From a virus, in IMG/VR virus record IMGVR_UViG_3300045988_044010: a stretch of 64,000 nt of DNA. The stretch is one strand, 5' to 3'. Position 1 is the stretch's first letter. Each line of letters opens with the position of its first letter. Positions 3,554 to 57,730 of this stretch are shown piece after piece. The notes under the pieces are model-generated. The model worked only from the letters and a program-made list of their open reading frames with translations. It was not told where the DNA came from and made no database searches. The translations under genes were made by a program, and so were the position numbers.

Positions 3554-6500
3554 AGTTACACTTACATGTGACGGTAAACATGATTCTTCTAAATAGTATG
3601 ATAGACTTTGTTTGGTCTATGATAACGATTATAAGTCTTTTATATCTATAAAGGAAGTACCTGTTAATATTAGCATTACCAATAAAGCATATTGGCAACC
3701 AGTAAGTGCAATATCAGCAGATGGTGAAGACATAATGGTTGATTATGATTTCAACCTTAAGTTTGCAGATAAAGAATATGTACCAAATCAGTTTAGCGGT
3801 TTGGGTAGAAAGATATTGCGTAAACGTATTGTTAACAATGTTAATTTACTTCAGTAGTCAGATATAAATAGAGCTGGTACTATTTATAGAATATAGTATG
3901 ATTATAATCTGCAAGGTCAAACAATATAGATGCCAGCTAACTGTGTATTGTTCTTTGATGGAGGTAGTATATCTAATGGTAGTATTATACTGAATAATAC
4001 TTTAGTATTACCGCAGTGTTTAGACATTGCTAAGAATATTAAATGTAATATTAGTGGTACTTATCAAAATGGTCAGATATACTATGATTCTACTTAGGAT
4101 AAACTCATGGCAGTAATAGGTCATAAGTTAGTAGACTTATCAGAGAAAGGATCAGGTAGTGGTGCTGTAAGTAATTATACTTGGATTAGATACGCTAATA
4201 ACTCTAGTGGTCTTAATATGACTATGCAGCCTCAACCAGATACTACTCATATAGGTATTGCTGAGAATCAAGCTGTAGAAACTCCTAGTTCAAATCCTGT
4301 AGATTATACTTGGATACTATTCAAAGGACCACAAGGAGAACAAGGTAAACAAGGAGAAAGAGGTATACAAGGACCTCCGGGAGAGAAAGGTGATCCGGGT
4401 AAAGATGGTGTTGACGGTCAACCGGGAGAATCAATTAAACCAAATTGGAATACATGGGTATTCAAACAATCAGAACTACAACCAAGTAAACCAAACTTCT
4501 TTGTACCTACTCCGGGAGCAGCAGGTATTGACGGTTGGTTTGATGGTCCGGGATCTACTGGTAGATGGTGGATGTCAATGGGTTTGGTAGATGGTAGTAC
4601 AGACACAGTGGCTACTTGGACGGATCCAGTACAATGTACAGGTGAAGACGGTAAGACTAATAGTTATATGGACTTCAAGTATGCTAAAAGTGCTGCTGAG
4701 ACTATTCCACCTCCATTAGATAGAACTGTGAGATTCCCAGAAGGATGGACAGATGAACCACCAACATTGATCAAAGGTGAATTCATGTGGATGATTAATG
4801 CGTTAATCGACGAAAATGGTGATCTTGTTGATAAATGGGTAGGTCCTATTAGAATTACAGGTGAATCAGGTCCTCAAGGAGAACCGGGAGAAGGATTACC
4901 CGGAGTATCTTACAAGACTGTGTTTGCATATAAATCTAGTGAAGAAGAACCTGAGAAACCAGTAGGCGGATCATGGGACTCTGAAACTAACGAGGTAGTA
5001 TACCCAGAAGGATGGCAAGGCAATGATCAGAAACTGACTCCTCCAATATGGATGTCAGATAGAACATTTACTTCTAATCCTGATATAGTAGAGGATTGGT
5101 CTACTCCAATTAAGATATCTGGTGCTGATGGTAAGCCGGGTGAAGATGGAAAAGCTGATGAATTTATCTATATACGTACTGCAACAGCTGGTGATTTAGA
5201 TAGACCTGATACTCCGCCTAGTGAACAAGTTGATGATTATGTACCTACAGAGTTAGGTTGGACTGATAATCCTAGAGGTGTAACAACTAATTATCAGGGA
5301 GAATGGGTTAGTACTAGAAGTAAGAGAAACGGTAAATGGAGTGTATTTAGTCAACCTGCCTTATGGTCTAAATGGGGAGAAAATGGTTAGGATGGAGATG
5401 GTATATAGTATATATTCTTTAGAACTGGAACAAATAATGATCCAGATAATCCTACTCCAAATAATACTAACTCTGATGCATATCAAGAAACAGGTGACTT
5501 CGAAGGAATAGAATATATTCCTGGAGGTGGTTGGTCTGATAATCCTCAAGGAGTAACTAAAGAACTTCCATACGAATGGGTATGTCAAAGAAAGTTCAGA
5601 GGAGGTAGATGGAGAGCATATACTGGACCATCATTGTGGGCTAAGTATGGTAAAGATGGTCTTGACGGTTTAGGTAGTATTGTATTAGACTTAGATAATG
5701 AAATACAGTCTGTAGCCACAGATAGCTTAGGAAATGTAATTAGTGGATTACCACTAAAGACAACCCTAAGTATGTACTATGGAACTGTGCAATTAAATCT
5801 AAGTTCATTAACTGTACGTCCTCCAGAGGGAGTTGTAGCAACAGCTGATAGACAAACAGGAGTTATTACTGTTACTTCTATTGCTAATACTACAGATACC
5901 ACAATACGTATACCTATTGATGCTAGTACAGTATATAACAATGAGTTAATGGAACGTACTACGTACCTTACTATTAACAAAATCAGACCCGGTGCAGATG
6001 GAGAAGATGCTATACTATATTCACTGATGCCTAGTGTAGATGCTATTCATGTAGATAAAAAAGGTGTATCAGACGTAACATTCATTAGTTGTGGTATTAA
6101 GAAGACTCAAGGTACTAATACTATAGAACTATCTCAATTACCTAATGGATATGCTTTTAAATACGTAATTGATGAAGACCTAGCTGAAAATTATACCATA
6201 GATCAAAATATATCTACTGCATCTATTAAGAAGAAAATAATCTTCATGCTTACTAATGGTGGTCAGTTAGTAGATAAAGAGACTATCTATAAGATTAGTG
6301 ATGGTAAAGATGGAGTAGATGGTGTAGGTGGTTTAGTTACAGACTTTGATAATGATATGATTGCTGTAGCTTGTGACTCTGAAGGTAATGTAGTAAGTGG
6401 TTTACCAGTAACATCTACAGTAAGTATGTATTATGGCACTACTAAATTAACTCTATATGAAAATCCTACACTAGGAGAAGTAACCGGAGTAACAGCTACA

Positions 6501-9778: not shown

Positions 9779-10180
9779 ATGAAATACTTTACTATAAAAG
9801 AATTAACAGAATCTACTACAGCTACAGCTAAGAAATTAGATAATACTCCTACAGAGTAGGCAGAGAAGAATCTAATTACTCTAGTAGAAAAGGTACTTGA
9901 TCCACTTAGAGAATTGTATGGTAAACCTATTATAGTTAATTCAGGTTATCGCAGTCCAGAAGTAAATAAAGCAGTTAAAGGAGCTAAGACAAGTCAACAT
10001 GTATTAGGAGAGGCTGCTGATATAACAGCAGGTAGCAAAGAAGAGAATAAGAAGTTATTTGAGTTAATCAGAGATAACTTTGAGTTTGATCAACTTATTA
10101 ATGAGAATGACTACTCATGGATACATGTATCATATAGAGAAGGAAGACTTAGAAAACAAATATTAAAGCTTGGTAAATAA
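9779..10180 (+). CDS. peptidase M15 family cell-wall hydrolase (endolysin), 133 aa with 1 TAG
   Basis: ATG 9779 is in frame with track ORF 9914..10180. The motifs SGYRSPEVN, SQHVLGEAADI and WIHVSY match the zinc-binding H/D/H pattern of VanY-type and phage M15 peptidases. Confidence 0.8.
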
Positions 10181-13100: not shown

Positions 13101-15024
13101 TGCGCCGTTTAATTATGGAGCCGCTATATCATTACCTGCAGGTTCGAGAAGATTTGATATATGGTATTCTGATAACTCGTCAACTAATTCTACTTAGAGA
13201 GGAATATTCTATAGAACTGGTTGGAATGTAACTAAAAATCCATGGGTTAGATTTTTAGATGCCAATGATATGAGTGCTACTAATACAGCAGACAAAATTC
13301 CAGTTAGAGACGCTAACAAACAGATACTAACTAGTGGTTATAAGAAAGAAGGATCTAGTGATTCATACGTACTACTTGGTGGTGGAGGTCATGTACTGTT
13401 GGCAAAAGGAACAACTGGTAATACTATGGTACAGAGAGATGCTGATGGTATTGTATATGGTAAGTATTTTTACACAGAACAAGAAGATGAAGCAGCTGGT
13501 ACATCTATATCTTCAGTGTATATAAAGAGTACAGATAAAATTATTAGAAGAGTATCCTTTGCTAACTTTAAATCAGCATTAAACATTCCTTCTGCATACA
13601 CATTACCAACCGCATCTAGTACTACTTTAGGAGGTATCAAGGTAGGAGCAGGATTGTCTATTAGTAATGGAGTATTATCTGCTAATGGAGGTGGCACAGC
13701 TGATTCAGTTGCATGGGCTAACGTAACAGGAAAGCCAACGTGGATTGGAACTACTAAACCAACTTACAGGCTAGACGAGATAGCTTCATCTACTAATCAA
13801 ACTGTAGATGCTAGTACTACCCCTGTATCTAGAAAGAAGATAGTTTATGTAGGCAAATCAGGTAATGGATGTATTAGTGCTGTAGCTTTAGGTATACGTA
13901 ATGTAAATGGATCATTTGGTCCAGCTGTATTATCGTTAGGAACTAAAGATACGCCATCAGATACAGCAGCTATTGATGACGGATGGGTAGATTACCAATT
14001 CCAAACTAGTGGTAGAGTTGTATCTAAAGCAGGTACATTTGCTGTCACTTCTGATATTCCTACTTCATTAAAGAATCCTAACGCCATTAAGTTTACAGGA
14101 GCAGTTACGGGTACTTATGATGGTTCTTCTGCTGTTACTTTGAATATACCAACTATTGCTGGACCAAAAGGCGATACTGGTGAGAAGGGAGAAAAAGGTG
14201 ATTAGGGTCCGTAGGGTTTGAAAGGTGACACTGGGGATCAAGGACCTAGAGGATATGCTGGTTCAGATGGAGCTAATGGTAAATCGTTAGAGTTTGTATG
14301 GAGTGGTTATACTCTTGGTGTAAGACAAGAAGGTACTACATCATATACTTATTCAACTAGTTTACGTGGAGCAACTGGAGCGAAGGGTGATAAAGGAGAT
14401 AAGGGTGATACAGGTCCAGCTGGTACTACAACGTGGTCTGGTATTACTGGAAAACCATCATGGATTGGTAGTAGCAAACCAACGTATACATGGTCGGAAA
14501 TCACAAGTAAGCCATCATGGATCGGTTCAAGTAAACCTTCCTATTCATATTCAGAAATATCTGGTACTCCATCTCTTGCTGATGTAGCCACATCTGGATC
14601 ATATAATGATCTAAGTAATAAACCAGTTATTGATACTGCTCTATCTTCTACTAGTACAAATGCAGTTCAGAACAAAGTAATATATGAATAGTTAGTAAAG
14701 AAGGCTGAGATAGTAGGATATTAGGCAGGTTAGAATGGTTACATAAAGTTTGACAATGGTTTATTAATGCAATGGGGGTATAAAACAGCAAGTTCTACTG
14801 GTACTAATACTACTTATACACCTATAGCTTTTTATAATGCTACATATGTTCCCGTTATTACTTATTATGAACCGGGCAACGGTATGAATATTGTCACAGG
14901 TCTTATTATAAATAAACAGACTAGTTATTTCACGATAAGGAGTAGATATACAGTGGGAGATTCAAACGGTACTGGCGCGGGAACCAATGATTTTTATTGG
15001 GTAGCCGTTGGTAGATGGAAATAA
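10183..15024 (+). CDS. tail fibre protein 2 (coiled-coil and collagen-like), 1613 aa with TAG read-through
   Basis: ATG 10183 and track ORFs 10240, 10687, 11428, 12172, 13270, 14218 and 14767 are all in one frame. About 13 TAG are the only interruptions, and it ends at TAA 15022-15024. It has RAxxAE coiled-coil repeats, Gly-X-Y tracts, repeated KP(S/T)WIG(S/T)(S/T)KP(S/T)Y motifs, and a C-terminal tip ending FYWVAVGRWK. Confidence 0.8.
14161..14283 (+). repeat. collagen-like Gly-X-Y tract in fibre 2 containing two TAG codons
   Basis: GPK GDT GEK GEK GD[TAG] GP[TAG] GLK GDT GDQ GPR GYA GSD GAN GK. The TAG codons are at 14203-14205 and 14212-14214. Confidence 0.9.
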
Positions 15025-15037
15025 AAAATTAACTATT

Positions 15038-15568
15038 ATGAAATATTGGAAATAGGGATTCTATGATGAATTTCAAGAAGGTTCGGTTGAAATAACCGAA
15101 GAATATTGGCAGAAACTATTAGTCGGGTAGTCATCAGGAAAAGAAATAAAAGAAAACGAAGTTGGATATCCCATATTGGTCGATTATCAGTATACTATTG
15201 ATGAATTAAAAGAAATGAAAATAGCTGACATTAATGCTTATGATAAATCAGATGCGGTAAATTCATTTTATCTTTCAGGAAAAAAAATGTGGTTAGATAA
15301 AGAAGACCGAGTAGGGCTTGTTAACTCAATTAATATTGAGAAACATACTGGTAAACTAGATACAGTTTTATGGTTTGATACAATAAAATATACTATACCT
15401 ATAACAGATGCTATATCTATGCTAAATTCATTAGAGTTATATGCACTTAATTGCTATAATACTACCCAACAACACATTTCGGCAATCTATAAATTACAAA
15501 CAAAAGAGGAAATAGAGTCTTATAACTATAAGACAGGTTATCCAGATAAGCTATAGTTTACATTATAA
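15038..15568 (+). CDS. DUF4376-like protein (possible tail fibre assembly/accessory), 176 aa with TAG read-through
   Basis: ATG 15038 is in frame with track ORF 15176..15556. It ends at TAA 15566-15568. The pattern KIADINAYDKSDAVNSF...MWLDKEDRVGL...LELYALNCYN...GYP resembles DUF4376 as I remember it. Confidence 0.5.
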
Positions 15569-15595: not shown

Positions 15596-16126
15596 ATGAA
15601 AGAGAAAATAATATTTCTAGCCCAAACGTATGCTCCAAATCCATCGGAGTGTACTTATTGGATTGATTTAAAAGAAGATCCGACTGGAGCTGTCATCAAA
15701 GTATGGAATGGCGCTACATGGAAACCTATTAGTGGAGACACTGAAGTGGTAGCTATGTTACAGGAAGAGATTAAAAAGAAAGCTACTAAGGCTACTACTT
15801 TATCTGGTTATGGCATTCAAGATGCATATACCAAAGATCAAGTAGATGCAAAAGTAGCATCAGTATACAGAGTAAAAGGATCGGTTGCTGATTTTGATTC
15901 ATTACCAAGTACAGCATCAGTTGGTGATGTGTATAACTTGGATGATACAGGAGCTAACTATGTATGTATTACAGCTAGTCCTGCAGAATGGGATAAATTA
16001 TCTGAAACTGTAGACTTAACAGGGTGCATTGCATCTGACGTAGTATCTAATGTAGTTTATATGACTCAGGCACAATACGAAGCATTATCGGTTAAAGATT
16101 CCAAAACATTATATTTAATTTACTAA
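15596..16126 (+). CDS. short tail fibre-like protein (176 aa)
   Basis: Intact ORF with a TAA TAA stop. The N-terminus PNPSECTYWIDLKEDPTGAVIKVWNGATW parallels the fibre 2 N-terminus PNPDEVMYWVDLNTDPLGGSIKVWNAEGYW. Confidence 0.6.
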   Translation: MKEKIIFLAQTYAPNPSECTYWIDLKEDPTGAVIKVWNGATWKPISGDTEVVAMLQEEIKKKATKATTLSGYGIQDAYTKDQVDAKVASVYRVKGSVADFDSLPSTASVGDVYNLDDTGANYVCITASPAEWDKLSETVDLTGCIASDVVSNVVYMTQAQYEALSVKDSKTLYLIY

Positions 16127-16130: not shown

Positions 16131-17399
16131 ATGAAATTACAGAATAATGACATAATAGCAGCTTATCTAGGTGCTTAGACTATTTCTGATATTAATTTAG
16201 GAGATAACAATGTCTTCTCTAATTACTATGGAGTTAGCTTTCCATTAGAACCTCAGAATACTCTTATGACTAGAATAGGTTATATGCCTTGGCATAAGTC
16301 ATTACCTATTCAATCTAAAATGAAAACATGTACTATTACTTCTGATGGTACTGTTAAATATATCAATGCATCTGATAGAACTAAGTATGAAGATGGAACT
16401 GACAGAGATATGACGCTTAATACTATGGTAGAAATACCTGAATTCTGGTATAAGTGTATGAAGAATGATACAGACGTTTTCCTTAACTTGTATGTTAATG
16501 ATCCTAAACTAGCAGACGTGGAACATGTAACTAAATTCTATATTTCAGCATATGAGGCTACTACAGTAGATGATAAGTTGATGTCAGTTAATAATGGTTC
16601 TACCCCTACAGTATCTATCCCCAGAACTACTATGCAATCTAGAGCTAGAGCAAATGGTAGTGAAAAATGGAATATGTATACTTATAAAGCACATAGAATA
16701 CTTACTATTCTTTACTTAGTAGAATACGCATGTACTAATAGTCAAGCAACTTACAATGCTACATTAACTTCAGAAGGATATAGACAAGGCGGACTTGGCG
16801 CAGGTGTAACTGGTGCAGGTCAACCAGTTAAGAACGGTTCTAATATATACTCAATTGTTCCATGTGGCACCACAGATTCTTTAGGTAATTCTACGGGTGT
16901 GGTTTCGTTTGCTTGGAACAATACTAATGCAGAAGGTGCTACTACATCTACATTCAATTATAATGTACCTAGTTATAGAGGTGTTGAGAATCCATTTGGA
17001 CACTTATGGAAGAATGTAATAGATGCATTAGTACACTTTAACTCTACTGATAATTGTAATGATGTAATGTTGAATAGTAATCTCGCTACATTTGGTTCAA
17101 CCACAATAGGTGATTATACATTACAAGGGCAGACAACAATTAGAGAAGGATATAAAAAGCAGTTGATATATAACTCTGCCTTTGATTTATTCCCATCTAA
17201 AGACGAAGCATTTGGAGGAAATACTACAACATATTGGTGTGATTATAATTACAGCAATAATAGTACATCAGACAGAACTATCCTTTTGGGTGGTAGCGCG
17301 GCTCACGGCGGTATTGCTGGGTTGCTCCATGTGGGTTCTAACAATGGGCTTGGTCATTCCTATGCTTCTGTCGGTACTCGGTTAATCTATATACCGTAA
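16131..17399 (+). CDS. DGR target protein (receptor-binding candidate) with C-terminal variable region, 422 aa with 1 TAG
   Basis: ATG 16131 is in frame with track ORF 16266..17399. There is a TAG at codon 16, and it ends at TAA 17397-17399. The last 39 codons contain the VR. Confidence 0.85.
17283..17379 (+). repeat. DGR variable repeat (VR)
   Basis: It aligns without gaps to 17441-17537 (offset 158). All 23 differences lie opposite adenines in the other copy. Confidence 0.9.
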
Positions 17400-17440
17400 A
17401 AATATAGAATTTTATTGAAAAATAATAGGTTGTTCTCTTG

Positions 17441-17537
17441 CATTTAGGTAGTAACACGACTAACAGCAGTAATGCTAGGTTACTCAATGTGAATTCTAAC
17501 AATGAGCTTAGTAATTCCAATGCTAATGTCAGTACAC
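17441..17537 (+). repeat. DGR template repeat (TR)
   Basis: This is the A-rich, AAC/AAT-rich non-coding copy of the VR. It lies 41 nt after the target stop and upstream of the RT. Homology decays after 17537 (T/G mismatch at 17538). Confidence 0.9.
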
Positions 17538-17662
17538 TGATCCCCAAAACAGAAAAAATATTTAAAGAAGCACTGTTAGAGAAGACCTTACCTCTTGGTA
17601 AAAAACGACATTTTAAAACACTGTATTAGTAGCGCAAGCGAAAATTCGGTATGGGATTTCAG

Positions 17663-18685
17663 ATGAAAAGATATAATAATTTATTTGAACAGATTGTTAG
17701 CTTAGACAATCTACGTCTAGCTGAAAAGAAAGCTAGAAAAAACAAGACTCACAGACCAGAAGTTATTGAGTTCGATAAGAATAAAGAACAGTTACTGTTA
17801 GAGTTATAGAAAATGTTAATTGATGGTACATATGTGACATCTCCGTATTATATCTATAAGATATATGAACCAAAAGAAAGAGAAATCTTTAGGTTGCCAT
17901 ATTATCCAGATAGAATAGTACACCACGCAATAATGAATATATTAGAACCTATATGGGTTTCAACCTTCGTGAAAGGTACATATAGTTGCATTAAGAAACG
18001 TGGTATTCATAAAGCTATGAGAGATGTAAAAGAATCATTAAAGGACATACAAGGAACTCAGTATTGTCTAAAGTTAGATATCAGAAAGTTCTATCCTTCA
18101 ATTGATAATGATATACTCAAACAAGTAATAAGAAGAAAGATAAAGGACGTTAAGTTATTAAATCTATTAGATAGTATAATAGACTCTGCTGAAGGAGTAC
18201 CTATTGGAAATTACTTATCACAATTCTTTGCAAACTTATATTTAACTTATCTAGATCACTATATTAAGGAAGTTCAGAAAGTTAAACACTATTTCAGATA
18301 TGCAGATGATATTGTAATATTACATAGTGATAAGAAATATCTTAGATATCTATATGAAGATATTAAGGATTATTTAGAGAATAAACTTAATTTACATTTC
18401 AAAGATAACTGGCAGATATTTAAAGTAGATTCTAGAGGAATAGATTTTGTAGGATACAGATTGTTTCATACACATATACTTCTTAGAAAGAGAATCAAAC
18501 AAAACTTCTGCAGAAAGATAACAAAACTAAATAAAAAAGATATTGATAAGGATGATTATAAACAAAAAATATGTAGTTATATAGGTTGGATTAAACATTG
18601 TAATGGAAGGAATTTGTTCAGTAAAATGTTGAAATATAAAGAGCTATTAGAATACGTTAACATCCATAGACCAAGTAAAACATAA
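17663..18685 (+). CDS. DGR reverse transcriptase, 340 aa with 1 TAG
   Basis: ATG 17663 is in frame with track ORF 17813..18685, joined through TAG 17807-17809. YADD is at 18299-18310, and the IGNYLSQ motif is typical of DGR-type RTs. An alternative in-frame ATG lies at 17651. Confidence 0.9.
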
Positions 18686-20056: not shown

Positions 20057-20653
20057 ATGCATAGAATAATCCGTATAAAAGCTTATGAAGCTGAACACGG
20101 TCCTCATTTCAATGATGAGCATGCTCGCAAAGCTGTAAACAAGATGGAAAATGAAGACGGAACAAGAGGTCAGCATTGGTCACTTGAGGAAACTACAGCA
20201 TTAGCTAATCAGTATGGTATTCGTTTGGATGAAAAGATAAACAAATATGACTGGTACGTAGCATTAAATATGGTATACTCAGATTACTACCGTGTAGTTG
20301 TTAGCATGACAGGCTCTAATAATACGAAGTACTTCGTAGAATTAGCTAAAGCATGGCTGCATGACAAAGACATAGATGAAGGTAAAATGTGGTTCTACTA
20401 TATTTATGTAATGTGTGATAAGATTAGAAATGCTGAAGAGGATCTTTTCGAAAGACATTACAGCAAATATGAAGATGACGACGAAGAGGAACGTTACGGT
20501 AACTACCGTAGAATGGGCAGATCTTCATATGGTAGACGTAAAGAGTACGACAGAGAATACGATGAAAGAGACTTTGAAAGGGAAAGAGAGAAATTTTTTC
20601 CTATGGAAGAAGAATCCAAACGTGGTCGTTCTGTGCGCTACATTAGATATTAA
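20057..20653 (+). CDS. hypothetical protein with R/E/D/Y-rich tail (198 aa)
   Basis: Intact ORF with a TAA stop. Confidence 0.7.
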   Translation: MHRIIRIKAYEAEHGPHFNDEHARKAVNKMENEDGTRGQHWSLEETTALANQYGIRLDEKINKYDWYVALNMVYSDYYRVVVSMTGSNNTKYFVELAKAWLHDKDIDEGKMWFYYIYVMCDKIRNAEEDLFERHYSKYEDDDEEERYGNYRRMGRSSYGRRKEYDREYDERDFEREREKFFPMEEESKRGRSVRYIRY

Positions 20654-23399: not shown

Positions 23400-23845
23400 C
23401 ACACAGAAAATCTTACACAATAAGTGACTTCTATTAGTTCTACCTATCTAATATTGAAAGAGATACTGTATATGATATTGATTATAAAGTGTACAGACAA
23501 ATAATAGAAGACTATTTTAAATTTATAGCAGACTAGGTTATTGAACATAGTAGAGAATTTAAACTACCATGCAGATTGGGTAATCTAAGTATAGTGAAAC
23601 GTAGACCTAAGAACTTTGATAATAAGAGTCTAAGGATTGATTATCATGAAAGTGCTATACAAGGTAAAGCAGTATACTTTATCAACGAACATTCCAATTT
23701 TTTTAAATTCAGATTTTTGTGGTCAAAAAAAGACAGTCTTCTAAAAAATAAAACCAGATATTAGTTTGTTGCCACCAGAGCAAACAAGAGAAGATTAGCA
23801 CAAATAATAAAAAATAGAGAGCATGATTACGTGGAGATTCGCTGA
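23396..23845 (+). CDS. hypothetical protein, 149 aa with TAG read-through
   Basis: ATG 23396 is in frame with track ORF 23576..23764 and ends at TGA 23843-23845. Confidence 0.55.
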
Positions 23846-24578
23846 TGTTAACAAATTACCTGAGGAATCTGGTATTTATATGATATTGAATATATTAAAC
23901 AATCATAAATACGTAGGTAGCACCAATAACTTTAAGAGAAGACTAACCAGACATCGCGGAGAATTACGTAAGGATAAACATCATTCCACTTACTTGTAGA
24001 GGGCGTATAATAAATATGGTGAAGACAAATTCATAATATATATACTAGAGAGATGTTAGCCTATAAAAGATACTTTGATATATTTAGAGTAGAAGTATTT
24101 GGATTTAAATCCAGAATATAATATCGAGAAAGTAGCAGATAGAAGATTTACTAAATAGGCAAAGATAAAAACAAATAAGGTAAAGCATCCAATACAACAA
24201 TATAGTTTAGACGGTAATTTTATCAGAGAATTTGACAGTATAACACAGGCAGCCAAATGGTGTGGAAATAAAAACAAACACCCTCAAATATCTTTGTGTT
24301 GTTAGGGTAAATTGATCCAAGCGTGCGGGTATCTATGGAAATATAAGAATGATGATAGAAGCATTATGCAAGTAACAAAACAACCTTGTGATAAAGGAAT
24401 AAAAGTTGATCAATTAGACATAAACGGGAACTATATTAAAACTTATGATAATATGAGAATAGCTGCAGAATCAAATGGATCAATACAAAATAGATCTGCT
24501 ATAAATAGAGTATGTAGAGGATAGAAGAAAACAGCTTTTGGGTATAAGTGGAGATACCATACAAATAATATATTATGA
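23823..24578 (+). CDS. GIY-YIG homing endonuclease, 251 aa with 6 TAG
   Basis: The GIY-YIG core reads SGIYMILN...KYVGSTNNFKRRLTRHRGEL...HHSTYL[TAG]RAYNKYGEDKFIIYILE. Two repeated modules in the C-terminal half (QYSLDGNFIREFDSITQAA, DQLDINGNYIKTYDNMRIAA) look like DNA-binding repeats. It is in frame with track ORF 24312..24524 and ends at TGA 24576-24578. Confidence 0.85.
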
Positions 24579-25486
24579 TAGACAATAATATGATATCATC
24601 TAAAGCAGTTATAGCCAAAATAATTGCTGATTTAGATTTAAAAGAAGATGAAGTTAAAATAACCGATATAAGAGAATATATTGGTGAGGCTATGGAAAAG
24701 ATAGGTGCTATATAGCAACTAGAACATAAAGTAGAAAATATTCCTGTAATAGGTTACTAGGCAAAGTTGCCATGTGATCTATACAGATTAAATTAGGTAG
24801 CATTTTCATTTGAGAATAGTTGTGGTTGGTTACCCATGAGAAAGGTTACCAACTCTTTTGGTGTTTATACCAAATGTGATAAATGCGATCCTAATATGAT
24901 AATTGGAGATAACGCTCTTATACCTTTGGTAAAGAATTTATACAACCTTATAGATGATAGGTCTGCATTAGATATCATTAACTCTGATCCTAACGTTAAA
25001 AAGACATTAAGTGCTTTAGTAAATCAATATACTATACCTAGTGTAAATGGTAGACTTATAGTAGGTAATCCAGCATCATTAAACGGATCATTACAATACT
25101 CTACTAAACCGGGGTATATTACAGTTAATGTTCCTTGTGGTTGGGTTAAGATATCTTATCATGCTATCATTACTGATGAAGATAGTATGCCTATGATACC
25201 TGACAATCCTTCTTATTTCGAAGCTATATTTTGGTATGTAGCTATGAAGTTATCTTATCCTAAGTATCTAAAAGGACAACTGAATCAAAACATATACTAT
25301 GATATGAAGAACTCATGGAACTTCTATCGTAGACAGGCTTACGCAGAAGCTATGATGCCGGGTGTAGATGAAATAGAATCTATCAAGAATGATTGGCATA
25401 AGTTATATACAGAGTTTGATGATCATGATACGTTCTTTGCTACTACTGGAGATGAACAAATAATATATAATTAGAATAGATTATGA
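24575..25486 (+). CDS. hypothetical structural-module protein, 303 aa with TAG read-through
   Basis: ATG 24575 (ATGA overlap) is in frame with track ORF 24836..25474. The apparent stop TAG 25472-25474 is followed by TGA 25484-25486, which overlaps the next ATG. Confidence 0.6.
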
Positions 25487-33803: not shown

Positions 33804-36800
33804 ATGGCAAAACAAAAAATATATGATCCTAGTTTGATCAGTAGTGTAAGACAAAGAAGTCGTGATTATAGTAACTATCTATCTCCCAAAGCGGATTTAG
33901 ATAGTTATGTTCATACTATGTCAAATATTCCTACATAGGATAGTGCGCCAGATTCATTTGGTGTTTCAGATTATTTGTCTAATGCATTCTATGATTGGAA
34001 TCTTACTAGAAATGAAACTAATAAAGATACTGCTTTAGGTGAGTATGTCTTTCTACAAAAAGACTATGATATACTAACAGGAGCTCAATAGTACTTAGAA
34101 GGGGTAAAGAATGTTCTTTAGTTACGCAAAGCTATGGATACGGATCCTAATGCTAACACTCCAGAAAATAAACAGTTACTAAGAGAAGAATCTATCAAAG
34201 TATAGAACAATAAAGTTAATTATGACAAATTATTAGCTAAAGACTTTAATGATCAAGCTGTTCGTGATAATATATTTCCTGAAAGATTTGCTGGTAGACC
34301 TATAGACTTACAGATAGAGATCATACAAACTGTACTAGGTGATGGTGAAATAGATAGACAAGGTGTAATAGCTAGAAGAGACGATGCTTTAAAGAAAGCT
34401 GAGAAATATAAAAAATTTGCAGAATATTGGCAAAGTAAAATGACATCTCAATATTATAGTGATAAGAAGAATTCTCCCGGTATGGATCTAACGGATATAG
34501 ACACGTATCTGTATAAACTACCGGGTCTTTTAGGTTCATCTGCTTCTAGCGCTGGCTCCTAGTTAATAGGTACTCTTGGTGCTATGTTTAGTACAAGAGG
34601 AGCAGGTGGTGTTATGGGTACTTTAGGCTCATTGACTGCGTTTGTAACAGGAAATGTGTACGCAAGAGATCAAGAATCTAAAGCTGAAGTATATCAAAAC
34701 TATAAGTAGAATGTAATGAATTCTGCTAAAAAAGATGGTATAGACAAATAGGTACTTAAAGATGCTAAATCTCAAATGCAAGAAATGGGTTATACACAAG
34801 AACAAATAGATAATGATGATTTTGTGTATGAACAAATATTGTCTAATAAAGTAAAGGTAAATAACAATTCTTTAAACCGTATAAGACTTAATAAAATGGA
34901 TGGTTTAAAGTCTCTTTATACAGACAATATGGCTTTATCTGGAAGTGATATAGTTCAGACAGTACTAGAAGTAACTCCATTGGGTCCTATAGCTAAAAAA
35001 GTAAGAGGATTATCGTCTTTAAAAAAACTTGCTAACAGCAAATATGGTAAAACAGCTTAGGTAATTGCTAGTAAAACTGGAAATCTTAAACAACAGTTAG
35101 CAGATAGAATTGACGATGTTGTAGCATTTGGCATAGAGAGTATAGACAAATTACCTAGACTTACTAGAAGAAAGGCAATAAAAGACATAGCTGGTAGAAT
35201 TGTAATAACATCGGCTTTAGAAGGAGCAGAGGAAGGAGTTCAGTATATAAAAGGTCAAAGATATATAGATGGAGATTTTGAGTCTGATCCTAATCTGATC
35301 AGTAGCTACGTACGTAATTTAGGTACTGGCGCTAGATCTGTATTTGCTGCTATTACTCCATGGGATCCAGTATATTCAGATGACTAGGAGTTTATGGAGA
35401 ACTTTAAAGGTGGTGCTCTATTAGGCGGTTTGATGACTTCTGTAATAGGTACTGCAACTAGTATTAAACCTTTAAATGATCAGATATCTGGTGATAGATT
35501 CTTAGCTGCTTTATATGCAGATAGAGAGGCATAGAAAGATCAAGTTCGTAAGAACATACTATATGGTTCTAAGATAAGAGAAGGTAAATGGAATACTGTT
35601 GAAACAGCGTTTGATAATCTTGTTAACTCTAAAATAGATGGTATAGATGTAGCTGAAATCTAGGAAGAACAGAAAAGAGCTAGATAGATGTATAATATAT
35701 TTACCTCTAATAGAACTGTAGCACAAGCTCAACAGTTAGACATAGATCCAAGAACCGAAGATTATGATATATTTGTAGCTTTAAAAGATCACCACGATCA
35801 GCAAGTAAGAGATGCTAGAGCTACTGCTACTGAACACAGAAGTGAAGCTGATAATTTACTGTATAGTCCTCAAGTATAGGAATACATTGAGAAACTTAAT
35901 ATAAAAGATATAGATCAAGTATCTACTATGAGAAGCGCTATAGCAGCTAAAATTCAACTTGATACTATGTTCCAGTTATATAACGAGTTTGAAAATAAAC
36001 AAAAGACTAAACTAGAGTAGATACAAAAACATACTGGTACTAAAACATCAAAAGCAGATGTAGTACAGTTTGCTGGAATGCTTAACAAAGATATTAAATC
36101 ATTCTAGGAACAGTATGAGAATCTGAAAAAACAGGTTACAGCTCTGGGTATCAAGGAAGAAGATTTAGAGGTTCCATCATTGCATCAAGATTTAAAAGAA
36201 GCTTATGAGAAAGTTATAGCTTCTGAATTAGATCTTAGACGAGCTGAAATGGAACAAACTATTATGGAATCCACAGATAAAGAAGCCATATAGGCTAAGA
36301 TAAATAAGTGGAAAGATGTAGAGGATGCTAGTAATAAGTTTATGTAGCGTCTGGATGACTTATACTCAGGTAAAACAGAAAAGCAGAATGAACAAGATTC
36401 TGAAGATGTCAAACCTGAAGTGTATGAGCAATCACCAGAACCAGTACCTTCTACTATAGAGGATGAGGTTAAAGAACCCACTGATATTTCTGATAAAAGA
36501 AAATAGATAGTTTAGAACAGAGAATAGTATTTTACTCAGGAAAGAGATTCTAGAGGAAGTAATAAATTTGTTTTAAATCCAGACAATACATTTGGTGATG
36601 CCTATAAAAATGCTAATATAAAACTTCAGCAGTCATATAAATTATTATTCCCAAATACAAAAAACTATTCTGACAATGCTGCACAATCTAGGTTAGCATC
36701 TTCTAATCGTCATGGTGAAGTAGCTGATGCTTGGGAAGAGGTGTATAATCTTCGTAATCAATTAGAAGAAGAAGTAGGAGAAAATGGAGCAACACCTAAA

Positions 36801-39800
36801 GCAGAAGAATTAGCCAAAGCGTTAACTCAAAAATCTAATCAATTAATAGATAAAGCTAAGGAATCAGTAGAAATGTGGGAAGCATATAGTGATTTTATAA
36901 GCTCTGGAGAATACTATATTCATCAGCAATTAGAGAGAATTAAGGATAAACAACATAAATTAACTGAACAACAGAATGATGTAACTCCTACTAAAGTTCA
37001 AGAAGCTCCGAGTACTATTCCAGTACAAGATAAAACAAAGACAGAGCCAGCCCAAGTTGAAGATATGCCCACATTAGGTTCTATACTGAGAGGTTTGATT
37101 AGTGAAGAAGATGCTAAAGTGATAGACTAGGCAGTAGAACCAGAAGTACCAACAGAACAAGTGACAGTACCTATAGAAGAACCAATAACTGATAGTGATA
37201 ACGATAAGGTGGCTCCTTTAACATATGATCAACAATTAGATCCATATTCTCATGAATTAAACTACCGTTTAAGTAGAATTACACAAGACAAAGATGGTAA
37301 TTGGACTGTAGTAACTTATAATAAATTCCAAGGTATGGAAGAATACCTTAATAATAAGGAATTTTCAGAAATAAGCGCAGCACCAGATTTTGTATCTGAA
37401 GTTACTAAAAACGGAGTACACTTTGAAGTACGACCATATACTGATGAAAATGGAGTTACGTCTGATGCTATATATGCAATATTTAAATATAAAGATAAAG
37501 AATATGTAGCTTCTGTTAGAACAGAGAAAGGTTTAGCAGCTAAAAGAGGTGGTAGATTTAACAGATTACCTTATGAGCAACAATAGTATATTAAGGAGAA
37601 TTTGCAAAATCTCAGAAACAAAATACTTGAATTGAACAAACAAGTAAAACTTGATGCAGATTTATAGATAGTTCCAACATTTATAAGAACTACTTCAGGT
37701 AGTATTGTGAATGAAGTAAATGCTGATGGAACCCCTAAGAATAGAAATATAATTGACTCTGCTTGGTAGAAAGTAAAGGATCCGTATTAGATTAATCCAA
37801 GTAATACTGAGATGGGTATTAGCACTGGACCTAAAGGTAAATCTATTATCCGTCTTAAAGATAGAGTATTATCATATAATGGTAAGTCTATGGGTAAACC
37901 ATTCTGGATTATAAAAGCTCCTAATTCAGAAGGTGCAATGATAGATAAACCAATTCAGCTTAATTACAAGTACTTTAAAGACCAACCTAAAGTAGCTGAT
38001 CTAATATTAGATTTAGTAACCAGTAATGATCAATTTTACACAGATGCTAATGGAGTACAAACTTCTATTAATCCAAAATAGCTGTTGCACTTTATAGTTA
38101 ACTTTGGTTCACATACTGCTACTAATCCTGAAGACACTAGATTAAATAATGAACAAATTCAATAGAGACTTAAAAAACAATTCTATATTGATGATAATAA
38201 TAATGTAGTAATTGGTACTACTACATACAGTATAAGTGATCTATTAACTGACAAGAATATAAGAGAGCAAGCCAAACAGTACATAATGGACAATTTCCAT
38301 TATGCTATTGATGAAGATGGTCTTAATAAAAATTGGTTAGGTGGAGATTTACAGAATGAAAACAGGGATCCTCACTTTGAATCATTGCACTCTTTTTTCA
38401 AGAACAGCAATGTAGATAAATTGGTTATTGTTCCCGGAGAAATAGAATTTACTCCTAAAGATTTTGGTATAGAATATTAGGATGGTAAGAGAGTTGTATC
38501 AAAAACTAATCCAAATGGTATAAGCGTATTAGGCTGGTATATCAAACAAGGTATACTTATGACTGATATTGCTGATACTTTACAAGATGCTAACATATAT
38601 GTAGATGATGTTACTATCCAAAGTAAGTCATAGAGGTCTGAACAGCAACAGGCTCAGCAACATATCAGTGAGGCTGTAGAAAGGGACTTTAGAAAAGAAA
38701 GTATCAGTTATACTGATGAGCAAGGTAATCAATAGAAACTTGATCTTGGTGAAATCTATAAGATATTAGATGGAAAGAAACGTGGTCCTAATATGACTGT
38801 AGAAGATTCTGTTAAAGACGGAATATGGTATAATGCTACAGAAAAGATGGATGTAGATCAAGCTAAACAGTGGATAGAAAAAACTCTTGGCATTACTCCA
38901 GAAATAACCAATTATGTTATAGATGTTACGGAAGCAGGTCAAAGTGTAGTAGGTAGAGTAACTGTAGATTCTATTAAATTGTATAATGATGCTCCAAAAG
39001 GAGTAGAATTTCATGAGGCTTGGCATAGAGTATCTCAGCTATGCATAGATGAAAAACATAGAAGAAAGATATATGATAGATATAAGAAGAAGAGCAAGTC
39101 AAATCTCTCTGATGCGGCTATAGATGAAATCTTAGCAGAACAGTTCAGAGAATTTATGTTAAATGATGCTGCTAAATATGATTTTGATACAAAGAATTGG
39201 TTTAGACGTATATTGAACTTTATTAAACTATGGGCTAGAACTGGTCAATATGCTTTAGCTAAAATATATGCAGACATTAATAGAGGTAAATATTACGGTA
39301 TAAAACCTAATGAGGCTAATGTAGAAAGATTTAAATCAATATACAGTGACGAAGGTCCAAACTTTGAAGTAAATGGTCACCAATTTAAAGCCATTACTAA
39401 GACTAAATAGTTTGATGATATAGTAAAAAGTCTCACTTATGCTTTCTTCCAATGTTCTTTTGTAGAAGGTAAATCTATTGATTATACTGATATTAATCCA
39501 AAAGATTATAGTTTTGAAAGACTTAAATTAATAGTAGAAGCTTAGAAAAACAAGTTTCCTTCTGAAGCTCTTACTGAAATATATGACAACTTTGATAATA
39601 TATTTGCTCCAGCTATAGCCTCTAAACTTAAATCATTAAATATAAGAACTATAGATAATGATAATGTTACAGCTAAAGAAGAGGGTGAAGAAGGAATAGA
39701 TATAGGACAGCATACAGTAGAAGGGATGAATATATCTATTAAAGACAACGCCCCTGCTGAAGTTAAATTCTTCTTCTAGACTATACCAATGAGACAAAGG

Positions 39801-50300: not shown

Positions 50301-51461
50301 TTCTTTAGGTAGCTTCCAGATATGATGGCAAACATTGGTAATCCTATACCAAACGGCAAAGTACCATATTTATTGATGTTAAATCAAGTAGTAAAAGACA
50401 ACAGAGAATTATTTGATAGATTAGACCAAAGTCAAGTATTACGTTCTATTAATCAGAACTTTTGGTTTGCAGGATATACACAAGCAGATTATACTGTTAA
50501 AAGCCACACGCTTCTAAGTATCTATCATAATTATCGTTTCGTAGATGGTGAAGGTTTTTTATCTAAACAATAGTATATTGATAAATTTTATTCAGATGAT
50601 AGAAAAAAAGGAGCAGTGGCATTTAAACAGCTTTCTACTACGTTATATGATGCTTATATCACTAATAATAAAGGCGAGGTTTCTGTAGATTCTAAATACA
50701 GTAAGTATGTTACTGAAAAGCTTTTAAATGATGTTAGAAATAGAATTGATATATTATCTAAAAGAATTGACGGTACTTTGAGAGAAGTAGATAAAGCAGC
50801 AGTTCATGCAAGTTCTATTGCATCTTACTTAGTATTACATCGTAACTTTATGGTATCTGCTTTATAGGATAGATTTAAGAAGAGACAATATAATCTAGAT
50901 CTTGGTGCTATGGAAGAAGGTTATTATAGATCTGCTGGCAAGTTCTTATCAAATGTGTTAAAGAATAAACATTTTGCTCTTACTTAGTTATTAGCAGATT
51001 ATAATAATATGAAAGACTATGAACAATATGGAGTAAGAAGAGTACTTAATGAGTTAATGTTGGTAGCTGGTTCTACGTCAGTAGCTATTGCATTTGCTTC
51101 ATTAGTAGATGGAGATGATGATTATGATATGTGGTTAACACAATCAATTACGTACTTGGCTATGCGTTCAGCATTTGAATTTAGAACTATGTATAACCCA
51201 CTCGAATTAATTTCTTTAATCAAATCTCCTACAGCAGCTTTCAATTGGTTTGATAATTTATCAAGCTTCATTAATCTGATAAATCCATTTGCATATACTG
51301 GAGATAGAACACCTTTTACTATAATAGATAGAGGAGTGTATAAAGGAATGCCTGTTATATTAAAGAATATAATTAAAGTAACCCCATTTAAGAGTGCATT
51401 TGAAGCTTAGGATCCAAAAACAAAACGAAATTATCTATAGAATCAATTAATGAACTTCTGA
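47313..51461 (+). CDS. large virion protein, 1382 aa with TAG read-through
   Basis: ATG 47313 lies 10 nt after the TAA TAA. Track ORFs 48129, 48765, 49674, 50076, 50322, 50616 and 51009 are all in the same frame. Interruptions are TAG only, up to TGA 51459-51461. Confidence 0.65.
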
Positions 51462-53903: not shown

Positions 53904-53954
53904 ACTGTAAGAATTTAGTAAGTTTATATATAAGTATTGAATAAAATAGTATCA

Positions 53955-54788: not shown

Positions 54789-54801
54789 AACTGTAATTTT
54801 T

Positions 54802-56864: not shown

Positions 56865-56879
56865 ATGATATATTGTTAG

Positions 56880-56965: not shown

Positions 56966-56971
56966 ATTAAA

Positions 56972-57033: not shown

Positions 57034-57082
57034 GTTCGTCGTATTATGCCCGACGTGGCGGCTTTATATAAATCCTAACAGA

Positions 57083-57709: not shown

Positions 57710-57730
57710 AACTATTTGTTTTGTATTTTT

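What the first reader, a model, noticed from the sequence alone, without database searches (positions are those of the whole stretch)
17283..17537. Diversity-generating retroelement: VR/TR pair with 23 adenine-specific differences and no other mismatch
VR 17283-17379 is the last part of the 16131-17399 gene. It aligns without gaps to TR 17441-17537.

I compared all 97 positions. The 23 differences all lie where the TR has A: TR positions 17442, 17446, 17450, 17454, 17456, 17459, 17462, 17465, 17468, 17472, 17477, 17482, 17486, 17492, 17493, 17505, 17510, 17513, 17519, 17525, 17526, 17531 and 17536. No non-A position differs until T/G at TR 17538.

Read in the VR frame, the TR is rich in AAC/AAT/AGT codons (HLGSNTTNSSNARLLNVNSNNELSNSNANVSTL). 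This is the classic design for A-mutagenesis without creating stop codons.
Basis: seen in the sequence. Interest (0 to 1): 0.8.

Follow-up and report, generated by a model that had tools for sequence, protein, structure and literature searches.

The report
Tail-protein diversifying retroelement in crAss-like phage
This is a genuine, apparently working diversity-generating retroelement that rewrites the tip of a tail protein in a crAss-like gut phage; it is a well-supported example of a system already reported in this group of phages, not a new kind of system.

Summary
VR 17283-17379 and TR 17441-17537 align without gaps, with 23 differences, all at TR adenines (P about 2.5e-14); nothing else in the window comes close.

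The interpretation (DGR) is supported.
- The cassette reads target gene (16131-17399), VR, TR, a 125-nt structured spacer, then the RT gene (17663-18685).
- The RT's best solved relative (8ub7, 4e-52, full length) reads as the Bordetella phage DGR enzyme bRT, an identification from my memory of its sequence. It carries the IGxxxSQ and YADD motifs.
- Across 17 genomes of the same species the TR is nearly invariant, yet every VR differs. Diversity is 0.41 at TR-adenine positions, 0.05 at other VR positions and 0.02 in the rest of the gene.
- Two covarying RNA duplexes bracket the TR exactly. One, followed by a hairpin and an A-run, resembles the 'cPRT Stop' element of the Bordetella phage DGR.
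- No Avd gene lies nearby.

The host genome is a crAss-like phage (Suoliviridae, Buchavirus-like) with TAG read as Gln in its late genes. Both DGR genes contain in-frame TAG.

DGRs of this architecture, without Avd, are already published for crAss-like phages, including Suoliviridae. This is a new member of a known kind. The C-type-lectin fold of the target could not be confirmed.

The parts
16131..17399 (+). Target gene: 422-aa tail protein and presumed receptor-binding protein. It has an in-frame TAG at 16176-16178, read as Gln.
   Evidence: The ORF is open under TAG recoding. It matches phrog_5302 'tail protein' at 9.5e-76. There is no Pfam, NCBIfam or PDB sequence hit. GenBank homologues in cr60_1, cr52_1 and cr109_1 are annotated 'tail protein; similar to sulfatase, major tropism determinant'. 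Structural neighbours in BFVD are crAss-like proteins and 'tail collar fiber' proteins.
17283..17379 (+). Variable repeat (VR), codons 385-417 of the target. The freely varying core is about 17295-17368.
   Evidence: The hypervariable residues are 389, 392, 395, 400, 402, 404, 405, 409, 411 and 413, which are the 10 AAY (Asn) codons of the TR.
17428..17438 (+). Upstream strand of the long-range RNA duplex B. It ends 2 nt before the TR homology begins.
   Evidence: It pairs with 17578-17587: 10 pairs, 7 with compensatory changes, 98% of cells paired across 16 diverged relatives. Cognate duplex energy is -12.1 kcal/mol against -8.1 for non-cognate partners.
17441..17537 (+). Template repeat (TR): non-coding, 34 adenines.
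   Evidence: It is identical or differs by 1 nt in 15 of 17 same-species genomes. In two genomes the TR differs at 10 positions, and their VRs carry the same bases at the non-adenine ones, with no non-A mismatch.
17537..17544 (+). TR 3'-flank strand of RNA duplex A. It starts at the last base of the VR/TR homology.
   Evidence: It pairs with 17653-17662. The sequences differ between clades with matching changes in the partner (UCCC/GGGA, AACCC/GGGUU, AAUCC/GGAUU, AAAUAC/GUAUUU, AAGCAC/GUGCUU). Cognate energy is -11.2 against -7.1 kcal/mol for non-cognate partners. The register shifts between clades, so the column-based count gives only 73% paired.
17578..17587 (+). Spacer strand of duplex B (the 'stop'-like duplex).
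17588..17606 (+). Hairpin P1 (UUACC-UCUU-GGUAA) immediately after duplex B, followed by an A-run (17602-17605).
   Evidence: 98.8% of cells are paired, with one compensatory pair. It is part of the Rfam RT-17 match. The same arrangement (duplex, stem-loop, adenosines) is described as the 'cPRT Stop' of the Bordetella phage DGR RNA (bioRxiv 10.1101/2023.10.23.563531).
17620..17650 (+). Hairpin P2 of the spacer.
   Evidence: In the outer stem (4 pairs) 95% of cells are paired and 3 pairs show compensatory changes. It is part of the RT-17 match.
17584..17666 (+). Match to Rfam RT-17 RNA (RF03020), a motif found next to RT genes.
   Evidence: 35.4 bits against a gathering score of 40.4; E 2.6e-5 on the 341-nt stretch and 4e-4 on 5.5 kb. 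The homologous spacer in relative L040 reaches 40.8 bits, above the gathering score.
17653..17662 (+). Spacer 3'-end strand of duplex A, directly abutting the RT start codon.
17663..18685 (+). DGR reverse transcriptase gene (340 aa from the conserved ATG at 17663; an upstream ATG at 17651 is not conserved). It has an in-frame TAG at 17807-17809, read as Gln.
   Evidence: RVT_1 at 6e-17; phrog_1423 at 1.7e-126; PDB 8ub7_A at 4.2e-52 over the full length. The motifs VPIGNYLSQ and YADD are present. The TAG codon aligns with CAG/CAA Gln codons in relatives and with a Gln in the 8ub7 chain.

Best explanation
This is a complete diversity-generating retroelement (DGR) in the tail-gene module of a crAss-like phage (Suoliviridae, Buchavirus-like).

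Proposed mechanism:
- The TR and its 125-nt spacer are transcribed.
- The adjacent RT copies the TR RNA into cDNA and misincorporates opposite adenines.
- The cDNA replaces the VR at the 3' end of the tail-protein gene.
- This randomises mainly ten Asn-templated codons of a presumed receptor-binding surface. Ten AAY codons alone allow about 15^10, or roughly 6e11, sequences.

Shown here: the A-specific VR/TR relationship; an intact RT of DGR type; a conserved TR against a unique VR in every genome; VRs that follow TR substitutions; and two covarying RNA duplexes that bracket the TR to within 0-2 nt.

Inferred by analogy with the Bordetella phage BPP-1 DGR:
- The 3' duplex (17537-17544 with 17653-17662) positions the start of cDNA synthesis at about A17536, cis-primed from the spacer.
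- The 5' duplex (17428-17438 with 17578-17587), with its hairpin and A-run, stops cDNA synthesis at the 5' edge of the TR.

The element works without an Avd partner, as reported for other crAss-like DGRs.

Both the RT and the target gene contain in-frame TAG codons in a genome that reads TAG as Gln only in its late genes. Full-length RT should therefore be made only once TAG is being read as Gln. This last point is an inference.
For: - VR/TR: 97 nt, 23 differences, all at TR adenines; P 2.5e-14; unique in the window.
- RT: best solved relative is 8ub7 (identified as bRT from memory of its sequence), 4.2e-52, covering residues 6-326 of 344; group II intron RTs score about 1e-17 to 1e-18. IGNYLSQ and YADD motifs are present.
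- Population evidence: 17 unique same-species VR/TR pairs have a near-invariant TR, every VR is different, and 4 non-A mismatches occur in 1071 cells. Nucleotide diversity is 0.41 at VR positions templated by A, 0.052 at other VR positions, 0.019 in the rest of the gene and 0.034 in the TR.
- Genome pairs that differ at 1 of 1152 nt in the rest of the gene differ at 17-22 of 97 nt in the VR.
- In two genomes the TR differs at 10 positions; their VRs match it at every non-adenine position, which indicates information flow from TR to VR.
- The 90%-identity protein cluster of the target holds 2469 distinct sequences. Among the 12 sequences aligned, variation is concentrated in residues 385-413.
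- 74 of 80 related loci (RT 63-100% identical) show the same VR-TR-RT order. They yield 71 unique VRs from 26 unique TRs.
- RNA: duplex B has 7 of 10 pairs with compensatory changes. Both duplexes are more stable with their cognate partner than with non-cognate ones. The spacer matches Rfam RT-17, and a relative scores above the gathering threshold.
- TAG as Gln.
Against: - No sequencing reads were available, so diversification within this particular population was not observed. The variation shown is between assembled genomes from different samples.
- No GC-rich IMH element and no hairpin downstream of the VR like those of BPP-1.
- No Avd among 13 neighbouring ORFs. Avd is required by the BPP-1 enzyme.
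- The C-type-lectin fold of the target is unconfirmed.
- The order of the two spacer strands is the reverse of BPP-1: here the stop strand lies 5' of the primer-like strand, which makes a pseudoknot. The priming assignment is therefore uncertain. Duplex A could instead regulate RT translation, because it abuts the start codon.
- About 10 TR adenines always correspond to the same VR base. These include two synonymous positions (TR positions 6 and 96). Part of the 97-nt repeat is therefore not being exchanged.
Confidence: 0.93

Rival explanations
1. It is a relic DGR. The cassette diversified the tail protein in the past, but in this genome it no longer operates, and the VR differences between strains are inherited.
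For: Loss does occur in this lineage. cr109_1 keeps the target gene but has lost the RT and has only a degenerate TR remnant. Six of 80 related loci lack a detectable VR/TR pair. One relative (L015) has a TGA at a conserved Trp codon of the RT. No read data were examined for this genome.
Against: The RT here is full length with its catalytic motifs. The TR and spacer are more conserved than neighbouring coding sequence: diversity 0.034 and 0.012 against 0.044 in the RT gene. The window's VR has no non-A mismatch at all; a decaying VR should have accumulated some. Near-identical genomes (1 difference in 1152 nt) carry VRs that differ at 17-22 positions.
Confidence: 0.06
2. It is not a retroelement product. 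The two copies are an ordinary diverged duplication, and the neighbouring RT belongs to a group II intron, a retron or a defence system.
For: NCBIfam's best, sub-threshold match for the RT is the group II intron RT/maturase model (116.9 bits against a cut-off of 300). Drt3a and retron models match weakly. GenBank annotates the homologues as 'Intron reverse transcriptase'.
Against: All 23 differences fall on adenines of one copy (P 2.5e-14). The same bias holds across 71 independent VR/TR pairs. The RT matches 8ub7 (which I take to be bRT) about 34 orders of magnitude better than it matches intron RTs. No intron RNA or other Rfam family reaches its threshold anywhere in the window. The VR tracks TR substitutions.
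Confidence: 0.01

Closest known systems
DGRs of crAss-like phages. Examples: crAssphage LMMB and genus I Intestiviridae (Morozova et al. 2020, PMC7290462); epsilon (PMC11054128) and zeta (PMC12386605) crAss-like phages. Cassettes 'previously found' in Suoliviridae are mentioned in PMC11054128.
   Same: - Architecture: target gene, VR, TR, RT.
- No avd gene.
- The target is a tail protein in the structural module.
- The RT has the GxxxSQ motif.
- The cassette is complete in some genomes and degraded in close relatives.
- Amber (TAG) codons inside RT genes are also noted for zeta phages.
   Different: - This species is absent from the GenBank phage collection searched; the nearest records are 72-76% identical in DNA. 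The same species is present in IMG/VR and in metagenomes.
- The Suoliviridae cassette seems to have been mentioned rather than analysed in the papers I could read.
- I did not find the RNA duplexes that bracket the TR, or the population-level spectrum, described in those papers.
Bordetella phage BPP-1 DGR (Mtd target, bRT, Avd, TR-Spacer RNA)
   Same: - Homologous RT (4e-52, full length).
- Adenine-specific mutagenesis.
- VR at the 3' end of a receptor-binding tail protein.
- A spacer of similar size (125 nt here, 140 nt in BPP-1).
- A duplex between sequence upstream of the TR and the spacer, followed by a stem-loop and adenosines ('cPRT Stop').
- A duplex between the TR 3' flank and the spacer.
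   Different: - No Avd.
- Gene order is target-TR-RT, not target-avd-TR-RT.
- No (G/C)14 IMH and no hairpin after the VR.
- The two spacer strands are in the opposite order, so the two duplexes cross.
- The primer-like strand abuts the RT start codon.
- The target shows no detectable sequence similarity to Mtd.
Rfam RT-17 / RT-18 RNA motifs (RF03020, RF03021)
   Same: The two spacer hairpins and the conserved UAGUAG...CGAAA core match the RT-17 model end to end (positions 1-95). The match lies immediately upstream of an RT gene.
   Different: The window's copy scores 35.4 bits, below the gathering score of 40.4; one relative scores 40.8. The Rfam model does not include the long-range duplexes with the TR flanks.

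Membership tests
Diversity-generating retroelement (DGR) | TR/VR near-repeat whose differences are (almost) all at TR adenines | tested here: met
   23 of 23 differences are at TR adenines over 97 nt; P 2.5e-14; unique in the window.
Diversity-generating retroelement (DGR) | Reverse transcriptase of the DGR clade, with the [I/L]GxxxSQ motif and YxDD, encoded next to the TR | tested here: met
   The best PDB hit is 8ub7_A (328 aa) at 4.2e-52 over the full length; from my own knowledge of its sequence this is Bordetella phage bRT. Intron RTs score about 1e-17. VPIGNYLSQ and RYADDIV are present. The RT gene starts 125 nt after the TR.
Diversity-generating retroelement (DGR) | VR lies at the 3' end of a protein-coding target gene, and the TR avoids creating stop codons | tested here: met
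   The VR covers codons 385-417 of 422. All A-bearing TR codons are AAY, AGY, ACN, GAG, AGG, TTA, CAT or ACA, none of which can become TAA or TGA by changing an A.
Diversity-generating retroelement (DGR) | Hypervariability confined to TR-adenine positions in natural populations, with a conserved TR | tested here: met
   Tested on assembled genomes, not reads. Diversity is 0.41 at A positions, 0.052 at non-A positions and 0.019 in the rest of the gene. There are 17 of 17 unique VRs, and 71 unique VRs from 26 TRs.
Diversity-generating retroelement (DGR) | Accessory protein Avd (or HRDC); present in most but not all DGRs | tested here: not met
   None of 13 ORFs between 8984 and 23845 matches an Avd-like family. 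The gaps are too short for a gene: 41 nt between VR stop and TR, and 125 nt between TR and RT. Absence of avd is reported as normal for crAss-like DGRs of RT lineage 3 (PMC7290462).
Diversity-generating retroelement (DGR) | IMH at the VR 3' end, with a non-identical IMH* at the TR 3' end | tested here: inconclusive
   The 3' ends differ at fixed positions: TR position 96 is A against T in 67 of 67 pairs, then T/G and A/T. This fits an IMH/IMH* distinction. There is no GC-rich block and no hairpin, and function cannot be tested in silico.
Diversity-generating retroelement (DGR) | Structured spacer RNA flanking the TR (template:primer duplex and cPRT Stop, as in BPP-1) | tested here: met
   Duplex B has 7 of 10 compensatory pairs and is followed by a hairpin and an A-run. 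Duplex A is supported by cognate against non-cognate energies and clade-specific complementary changes. Their roles in priming and stopping are inferred, not shown.
C-type-lectin / FGE-like fold DGR variable proteins (Mtd, TvpA, TaqVP) | The VR forms part of a CLec-fold ligand-binding domain | tested here: inconclusive
   The first AlphaFold2 run failed (pLDDT 27). The second run, with 88 sequences, gave pLDDT 68.9 and pTM 0.75, but the VR region (residues 346-406 of the model) stayed below 50. Foldseek against the PDB gave a best E of 0.49. There is no Pfam hit even at E<=10 for the C-terminal 150 aa of 10 family members, and no PDB hit with a 56-sequence profile. Indirect support: one BFVD neighbour is annotated as TvpA-like (E 2e-5); the GenBank note reads 'similar to sulfatase, major tropism determinant'; and the C-terminal pattern YWCDY...LLGG.A..G..AGL....S...G.RL recalls CLec-type VRs (a resemblance, not a test).
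Rfam RT-17 RNA (RF03020) | Score at or above the family's gathering threshold (40.4 bits) | tested here: not met
   The window scores 35.4 bits (E 2.6e-5 on 341 nt). The homologous element in L040 scores 40.8 bits, L063 37.2 and L076 35.2. It is best described as a borderline or divergent member.
Crassvirales, family Suoliviridae (genome context) | DNA/protein similarity and gene content of crAss-like phages, with TAG-to-Gln recoding of late genes | tested here: met
   The nearest records are Buchavirus species (cr60_1, cr52_1, cr109_1) at 72-76% DNA identity. CrAss tail ring proteins 1 and 2 match at 1.8e-117 and 2.4e-80. There is a 4498-aa ORF under TAG recoding. Late-strand ORFs hold 178 in-frame TAG codons against 3 in the opposite-strand genes. 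Genus-level assignment was not tested.

The most novel reading that the evidence does not exclude
This would be an Avd-independent DGR whose cDNA synthesis is delimited by two crossing (pseudoknotted) long-range RNA duplexes, with the primer-side strand directly abutting the RT start codon. Under this reading RT translation and cis-priming compete for the same RNA. The in-frame amber codons in both the RT and the target gene would also restrict mutagenic homing to the late phase of infection, when the genome's late genes are read with TAG as Gln. That would be a distinct way of organising and timing a DGR compared with the Bordetella phage paradigm.
Probability: 0.25. Interest if true: 0.5.

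Novelty: new member of a known kind. Interest (0 to 1): 0.3.

Why it matters
crAss-like phages are among the most abundant viruses of the human gut, and Suoliviridae have never been cultured. A working DGR on a tail protein points to the receptor-binding protein of this phage and to the residues that contact the host.

It also helps explain why this one protein forms database clusters of thousands of near-identical variants.

The comparative RNA result is a compact, testable model for DGRs that lack Avd: the TR is bracketed to the nucleotide by two covarying duplexes, one resembling the Bordetella phage 'stop' element.

The element also shows why DGR finders that assume the standard genetic code can miss such cassettes. 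The RT and the target are split by TAG codons, and in a relative the signature Gln of GxxxSQ is itself TAG-encoded.

None of this changes the general picture of DGRs.

Tried and rejected
- First structure prediction from a shallow alignment (27 sequences, 69-97% identical) failed with pLDDT 27.
- The second prediction (88 sequences) folded the N-terminal roughly 270 residues, but not the VR region. Foldseek against the PDB gave nothing usable.
- No link from the target to known domains by sequence. Tried Pfam, NCBIfam, PDB with phmmer, PDB with a 56-sequence profile, and Pfam at E<=10 on C-terminal fragments.
I used the part of the gene after the TAG instead.
- The metagenome scan with a 33-nt TR pattern returned only 7 loci, too few for a large substitution spectrum.
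- I looked for a BPP-1-like arrangement with the primer strand immediately 5' of the stop strand (17560-17577). CUGU there could pair with TR CAGU in some clades, but the L076 and L083 clades lack it and nothing covaries, so I rejected it (by inspection).
- I mis-specified the inner stem of hairpin P2 (helix 5, 15% paired). Disregard that helix.
- No hairpin or cruciform after the VR. The sigma-70 promoter and terminator scan was uninformative.
- The 63-aa ORF 17438-17629 across the TR is treated as spurious: it has a TTG start, overlaps the TR and the structured spacer, and no family search was run on it.
- A full-text search for PDB code 8UB7 found no paper. Identifying that chain as bRT rests on my knowledge of the bRT sequence and on the bioRxiv paper describing the bRT-Avd-RNA structures.
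Full report
**Observation.**
- VR 17283-17379 and TR 17441-17537 align without gaps at an offset of 158 nt.
All are at TR adenines: 34 A in the TR, with 14 A>G, 5 A>T and 4 A>C.
- The first non-adenine mismatch is T17538 against G17380.
- If 23 differences fell at random among 97 positions, all would hit the 34 adenines with probability 2.5e-14.
- A whole-window scan for ungapped pairs whose only mismatches lie at one base of one copy found this pair and nothing longer than 32 nt. Shuffled windows gave at most 34 nt, and the same scan for C, G or T gave at most 31 nt.
- There is no second VR on either strand: 63 of 63 non-A positions match at 17283, and the next best site matches 31 of 63.

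**Genome context.**
- The window has 32.7% G+C. Under the standard code the + strand is broken into short ORFs. If TAG is read as sense, ORF coverage rises to about 100% and a 4498-aa ORF appears.
- + strand ORFs contain 178 in-frame TAG codons, against 398 CAA and 152 CAG. The - strand genes at 51.5-64 kb contain 3. No ORF ends in TAG.
- The closest GenBank phages are the uncultured crAss-like phages cr60_1, cr52_1 and cr109_1 (Crassvirales, Suoliviridae, Loutivirinae, Buchavirus), at 72-76% DNA identity over this region.
- CrAss tail ring proteins 1 and 2 flank the region. The cassette therefore sits in the late, TAG-recoded structural module of a crAss-like phage.
- TAG recoding to Gln in Suoliviridae is documented, including by metaproteomics (PMC10136315).

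**Cassette anatomy: the target gene.**
- The target gene is 16131-17399 (422 aa, with TAG at 16176-16178).
- It matches the PHROG 'tail protein' family phrog_5302 at 9.5e-76.
- It follows a gene with a phage tail tip domain (15596-16126) and one with tail-fibre-assembly-like matches (14987-15568).

**Cassette anatomy: the RT gene.**
- The RT gene most likely starts at the conserved ATG at 17663 (MKRYNN...). The upstream ATG at 17651 is not conserved in relatives.
- The gene ends at 18685 and has one in-frame TAG at 17807-17809.
- That TAG aligns with CAG or CAA in relatives. Relatives carry 5-6 TAG codons of their own, and five of the seven TAG positions compared across the three RTs align with Gln codons in the others.
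- In cr60_1 the Gln of the DGR signature GxxxSQ is itself TAG-encoded.
- The RT's best solved relative is chain 8ub7_A (328 aa), at 4.2e-52 and aligned over residues 6-326. By its sequence I recognise this chain as the Bordetella phage DGR enzyme bRT; that is my own knowledge. The structures are described in bioRxiv 10.1101/2023.10.23.563531.
- Retron-type and group II intron RTs score about 1e-17 to 1e-18.
- The IGNYLSQ and YADD motifs are present.
- No Avd-like protein was found among 13 neighbouring ORFs, and the intergenic gaps are too short to hold one.

**Is it active?** Reads were not available, so I used related assemblies.
- RT-based and TR-based searches gave 17 unique VR/TR pairs from genomes of the same species, with RT 94-100% identical.
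- The TR is identical or differs by 1 nt in 15 of the 17. All 17 VRs differ from one another. Only 4 of 1071 non-adenine cells differ from the cognate TR.
- Two genomes (L006, L016) have a TR that differs at 10 positions. Their VRs match it at every non-adenine position, as expected if information flows from TR to VR.
- Nucleotide diversity is 0.41 at VR positions templated by adenine. It is 0.052 at other VR positions, 0.019 in the remaining 1152 nt of the gene, 0.034 in the TR and 0.012 in the spacer.
- Genome pairs that differ at 1 of 1152 nt upstream differ at 17-22 of 97 nt in the VR.
- The target's 90%-identity cluster contains 2469 distinct sequences. Among the 12 sequences aligned, variation is concentrated in residues 385-413.
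- In the wider clade (RT 63-100% identical), 74 of 80 loci have the same VR-TR-RT layout. They give 71 unique VRs from 26 unique TRs. The mismatch rate is 2.65% at non-A positions and 72% at A positions.

**Which positions really vary?**
- The freely varying sites are the first two bases of ten AAY codons (residues 389, 392, 395, 400, 402, 404, 405, 409, 411, 413), plus a few ACN and AGY codons.
- About ten TR adenines almost always correspond to the same VR base.
- Seven of these turn AGY, AGG or GAG into Gly codons. Rare A retention at these sites suggests that they are exchanged and then selected.
- Positions 2, 6 and 96 show no variation in the same species. Position 96 is a synonymous third position yet is T in 67 of 67 pairs. 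I read the two ends of the 97-nt repeat as lying outside the exchanged tract, behaving like IMH/IMH*. The effective VR is then about 17292-17368.
- One oddity remains. At TR position 42 (TTA, Leu) the VR is G in 46 pairs, A in 7, T in 4 and C in 1, although A and G are synonymous.

**RNA elements.**
- The spacer matches Rfam RT-17 at 35.4 bits, below the gathering score of 40.4. A relative's spacer reaches 40.8 bits.
- I aligned 16 diverged relatives and tested a structure that I specified.
- Duplex B pairs 17428-17438, just upstream of the TR, with spacer 17578-17587. In this duplex 98% of cells are paired, and 7 of 10 pairs show compensatory changes.
- Duplex B is followed directly by a 5-bp hairpin with a UCUU loop (17588-17601) and an A-run.
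- This arrangement is the one described for the 'cPRT Stop' of the Bordetella phage DGR RNA: an upstream:spacer duplex, a stem-loop and adenosines, which blocks cDNA synthesis at the 5' end of the TR. It has been reported as predicted in many DGRs.
- Duplex A pairs 17537-17544, starting at the last base of the VR/TR homology, with 17653-17662, which ends at the base before the RT AUG. Its sequence differs between clades with matching partner changes. For example, L076 has CUGAAAUAC paired with GUAUUUCAG, and L083 has UGAAGCAC paired with GUGCUUCA.
- Cognate duplexes average -11.2 kcal/mol against -7.1 for non-cognate partners. Duplex B gives -12.1 against -8.1. The register of duplex A shifts between clades, so the column-based count is weaker, at 73% paired.
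- The TR homology (17441-17537) is thus bracketed by the two duplexes to within 0-2 nt.
- By analogy with BPP-1, I infer that duplex A sets the start of cDNA synthesis (about A17536) and that duplex B sets its end.
- The order of the two spacer strands is the reverse of BPP-1, so the duplexes cross. The priming site is therefore not established, and duplex A might also, or instead, control RT translation.

**Target fold.**
- The roughly 400-aa module belongs to a large family with no Pfam model: 1648 representatives at 50% clustering. It often forms the C-terminal part of proteins up to about 1500 aa.
- Sequence and profile searches found no PDB or Pfam relative.
- AlphaFold2 with 88 sequences gave pLDDT 68.9 and pTM 0.75, but the VR region stayed below 50.
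- Foldseek found nothing in the PDB. In BFVD it found crAss-like and 'tail collar fiber' proteins, plus one protein annotated as TvpA-like.
- The C-type-lectin prediction is therefore plausible but untested.

**Comparison with what is known.**
- DGRs with the layout target-VR-TR-RT and no avd were described in crAss-like phages in 2020 (PMC7290462), and later in epsilon and zeta groups (PMC11054128, PMC12386605).
- PMC11054128 states that complete or incomplete cassettes had been found in Intestiviridae, Suoliviridae and zeta phages.
- PMC12386605 notes amber codons within RT genes.
- GenBank already annotates the RT and an Mtd-like tail protein in cr60_1 and cr52_1.
- This finding is therefore a new, well-documented member of a known kind.
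- What I did not find in those papers is the population spectrum, the exact bracketing of the TR by covarying duplexes in an Avd-less DGR, and the reversed order of the spacer strands. These are refinements, and the last is only an inference.

**Verdict.** Interest is modest, at 0.3.

Noticed in passing
window 1-51461 (+ strand) against 51540-63917 (- strand): TAG is used as a sense codon (Gln) only in the + strand late and structural genes: 178 in-frame TAG codons there against 3 in the - strand genes. No ORF ends in TAG. GC skew flips at about 52 kb together with the strand switch. ARAGORN finds no tRNA in the window, so any suppressor tRNA lies elsewhere in the genome.
   Followed up: partly
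window 33804-47300 and 47313-51461: Two very large ORFs are open only under TAG recoding: 4498 aa with 49 TAG codons, and 1382 aa with 33. They were not annotated here.
   Followed up: no
window 23823-24578: A GIY-YIG/NUMOD1 homing-endonuclease-like gene (6 in-frame TAG codons) sits between the tail ring protein 2 region and the tail ring protein 1 gene (24575-25486). It is probably a mobile insertion.
   Followed up: no
L003 (cr109_1, NC_055892.1) 3953-5440: This close relative keeps the target gene but has no RT and only a degenerate remnant of the TR region between the target and the holin gene. It is an example of cassette loss.
   Followed up: partly
L015 4001-5032 (IMGVR_UViG_3300045988_019422): The RT of this relative has TGA where cr52_1 has a Trp codon (DH*IKEE against DHWIKEE). 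This could be an inactivating mutation, a sequencing error or TGA read as Trp.
   Followed up: no
L001 (cr60_1) RT codon 187: The Gln of the DGR-signature motif IGNYLSQ is encoded by TAG in cr60_1. Tools that use the standard code would truncate the RT at its diagnostic motif.
   Followed up: yes
window 17324 (VR) / 17482 (TR position 42), and TR position 6: The synonymous Leu codon TTA in the TR is TTG in the VR far more often than TTA: 46 G, 7 A, 4 T and 1 C across 58 pairs. Other adenines retain A in roughly a third of VRs. The cause is unexplained; it could be a context-dependent misincorporation bias or selection at the nucleotide level.
   Followed up: partly
target-protein family (P0135-P0401): The roughly 400-aa VR-bearing module has no Pfam model, yet 1648 representative clusters at 50% identity match it. 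It often forms the C-terminus of proteins of 500-1500 aa. Several 90% clusters hold about 2000 member sequences (P0001 2469, P0025 2020, P0346 1934), a signature of DGR diversification.
   Followed up: partly
window 17438-17629: A 63-aa TTG-start ORF spans the TR and half of the structured spacer. I judged it spurious.
   Followed up: partly
window 9779-10180 and 20057-20653: A Peptidase_M15 (L,D-carboxypeptidase-like) gene and a DUF7841 gene lie in the structural module.
   Followed up: no
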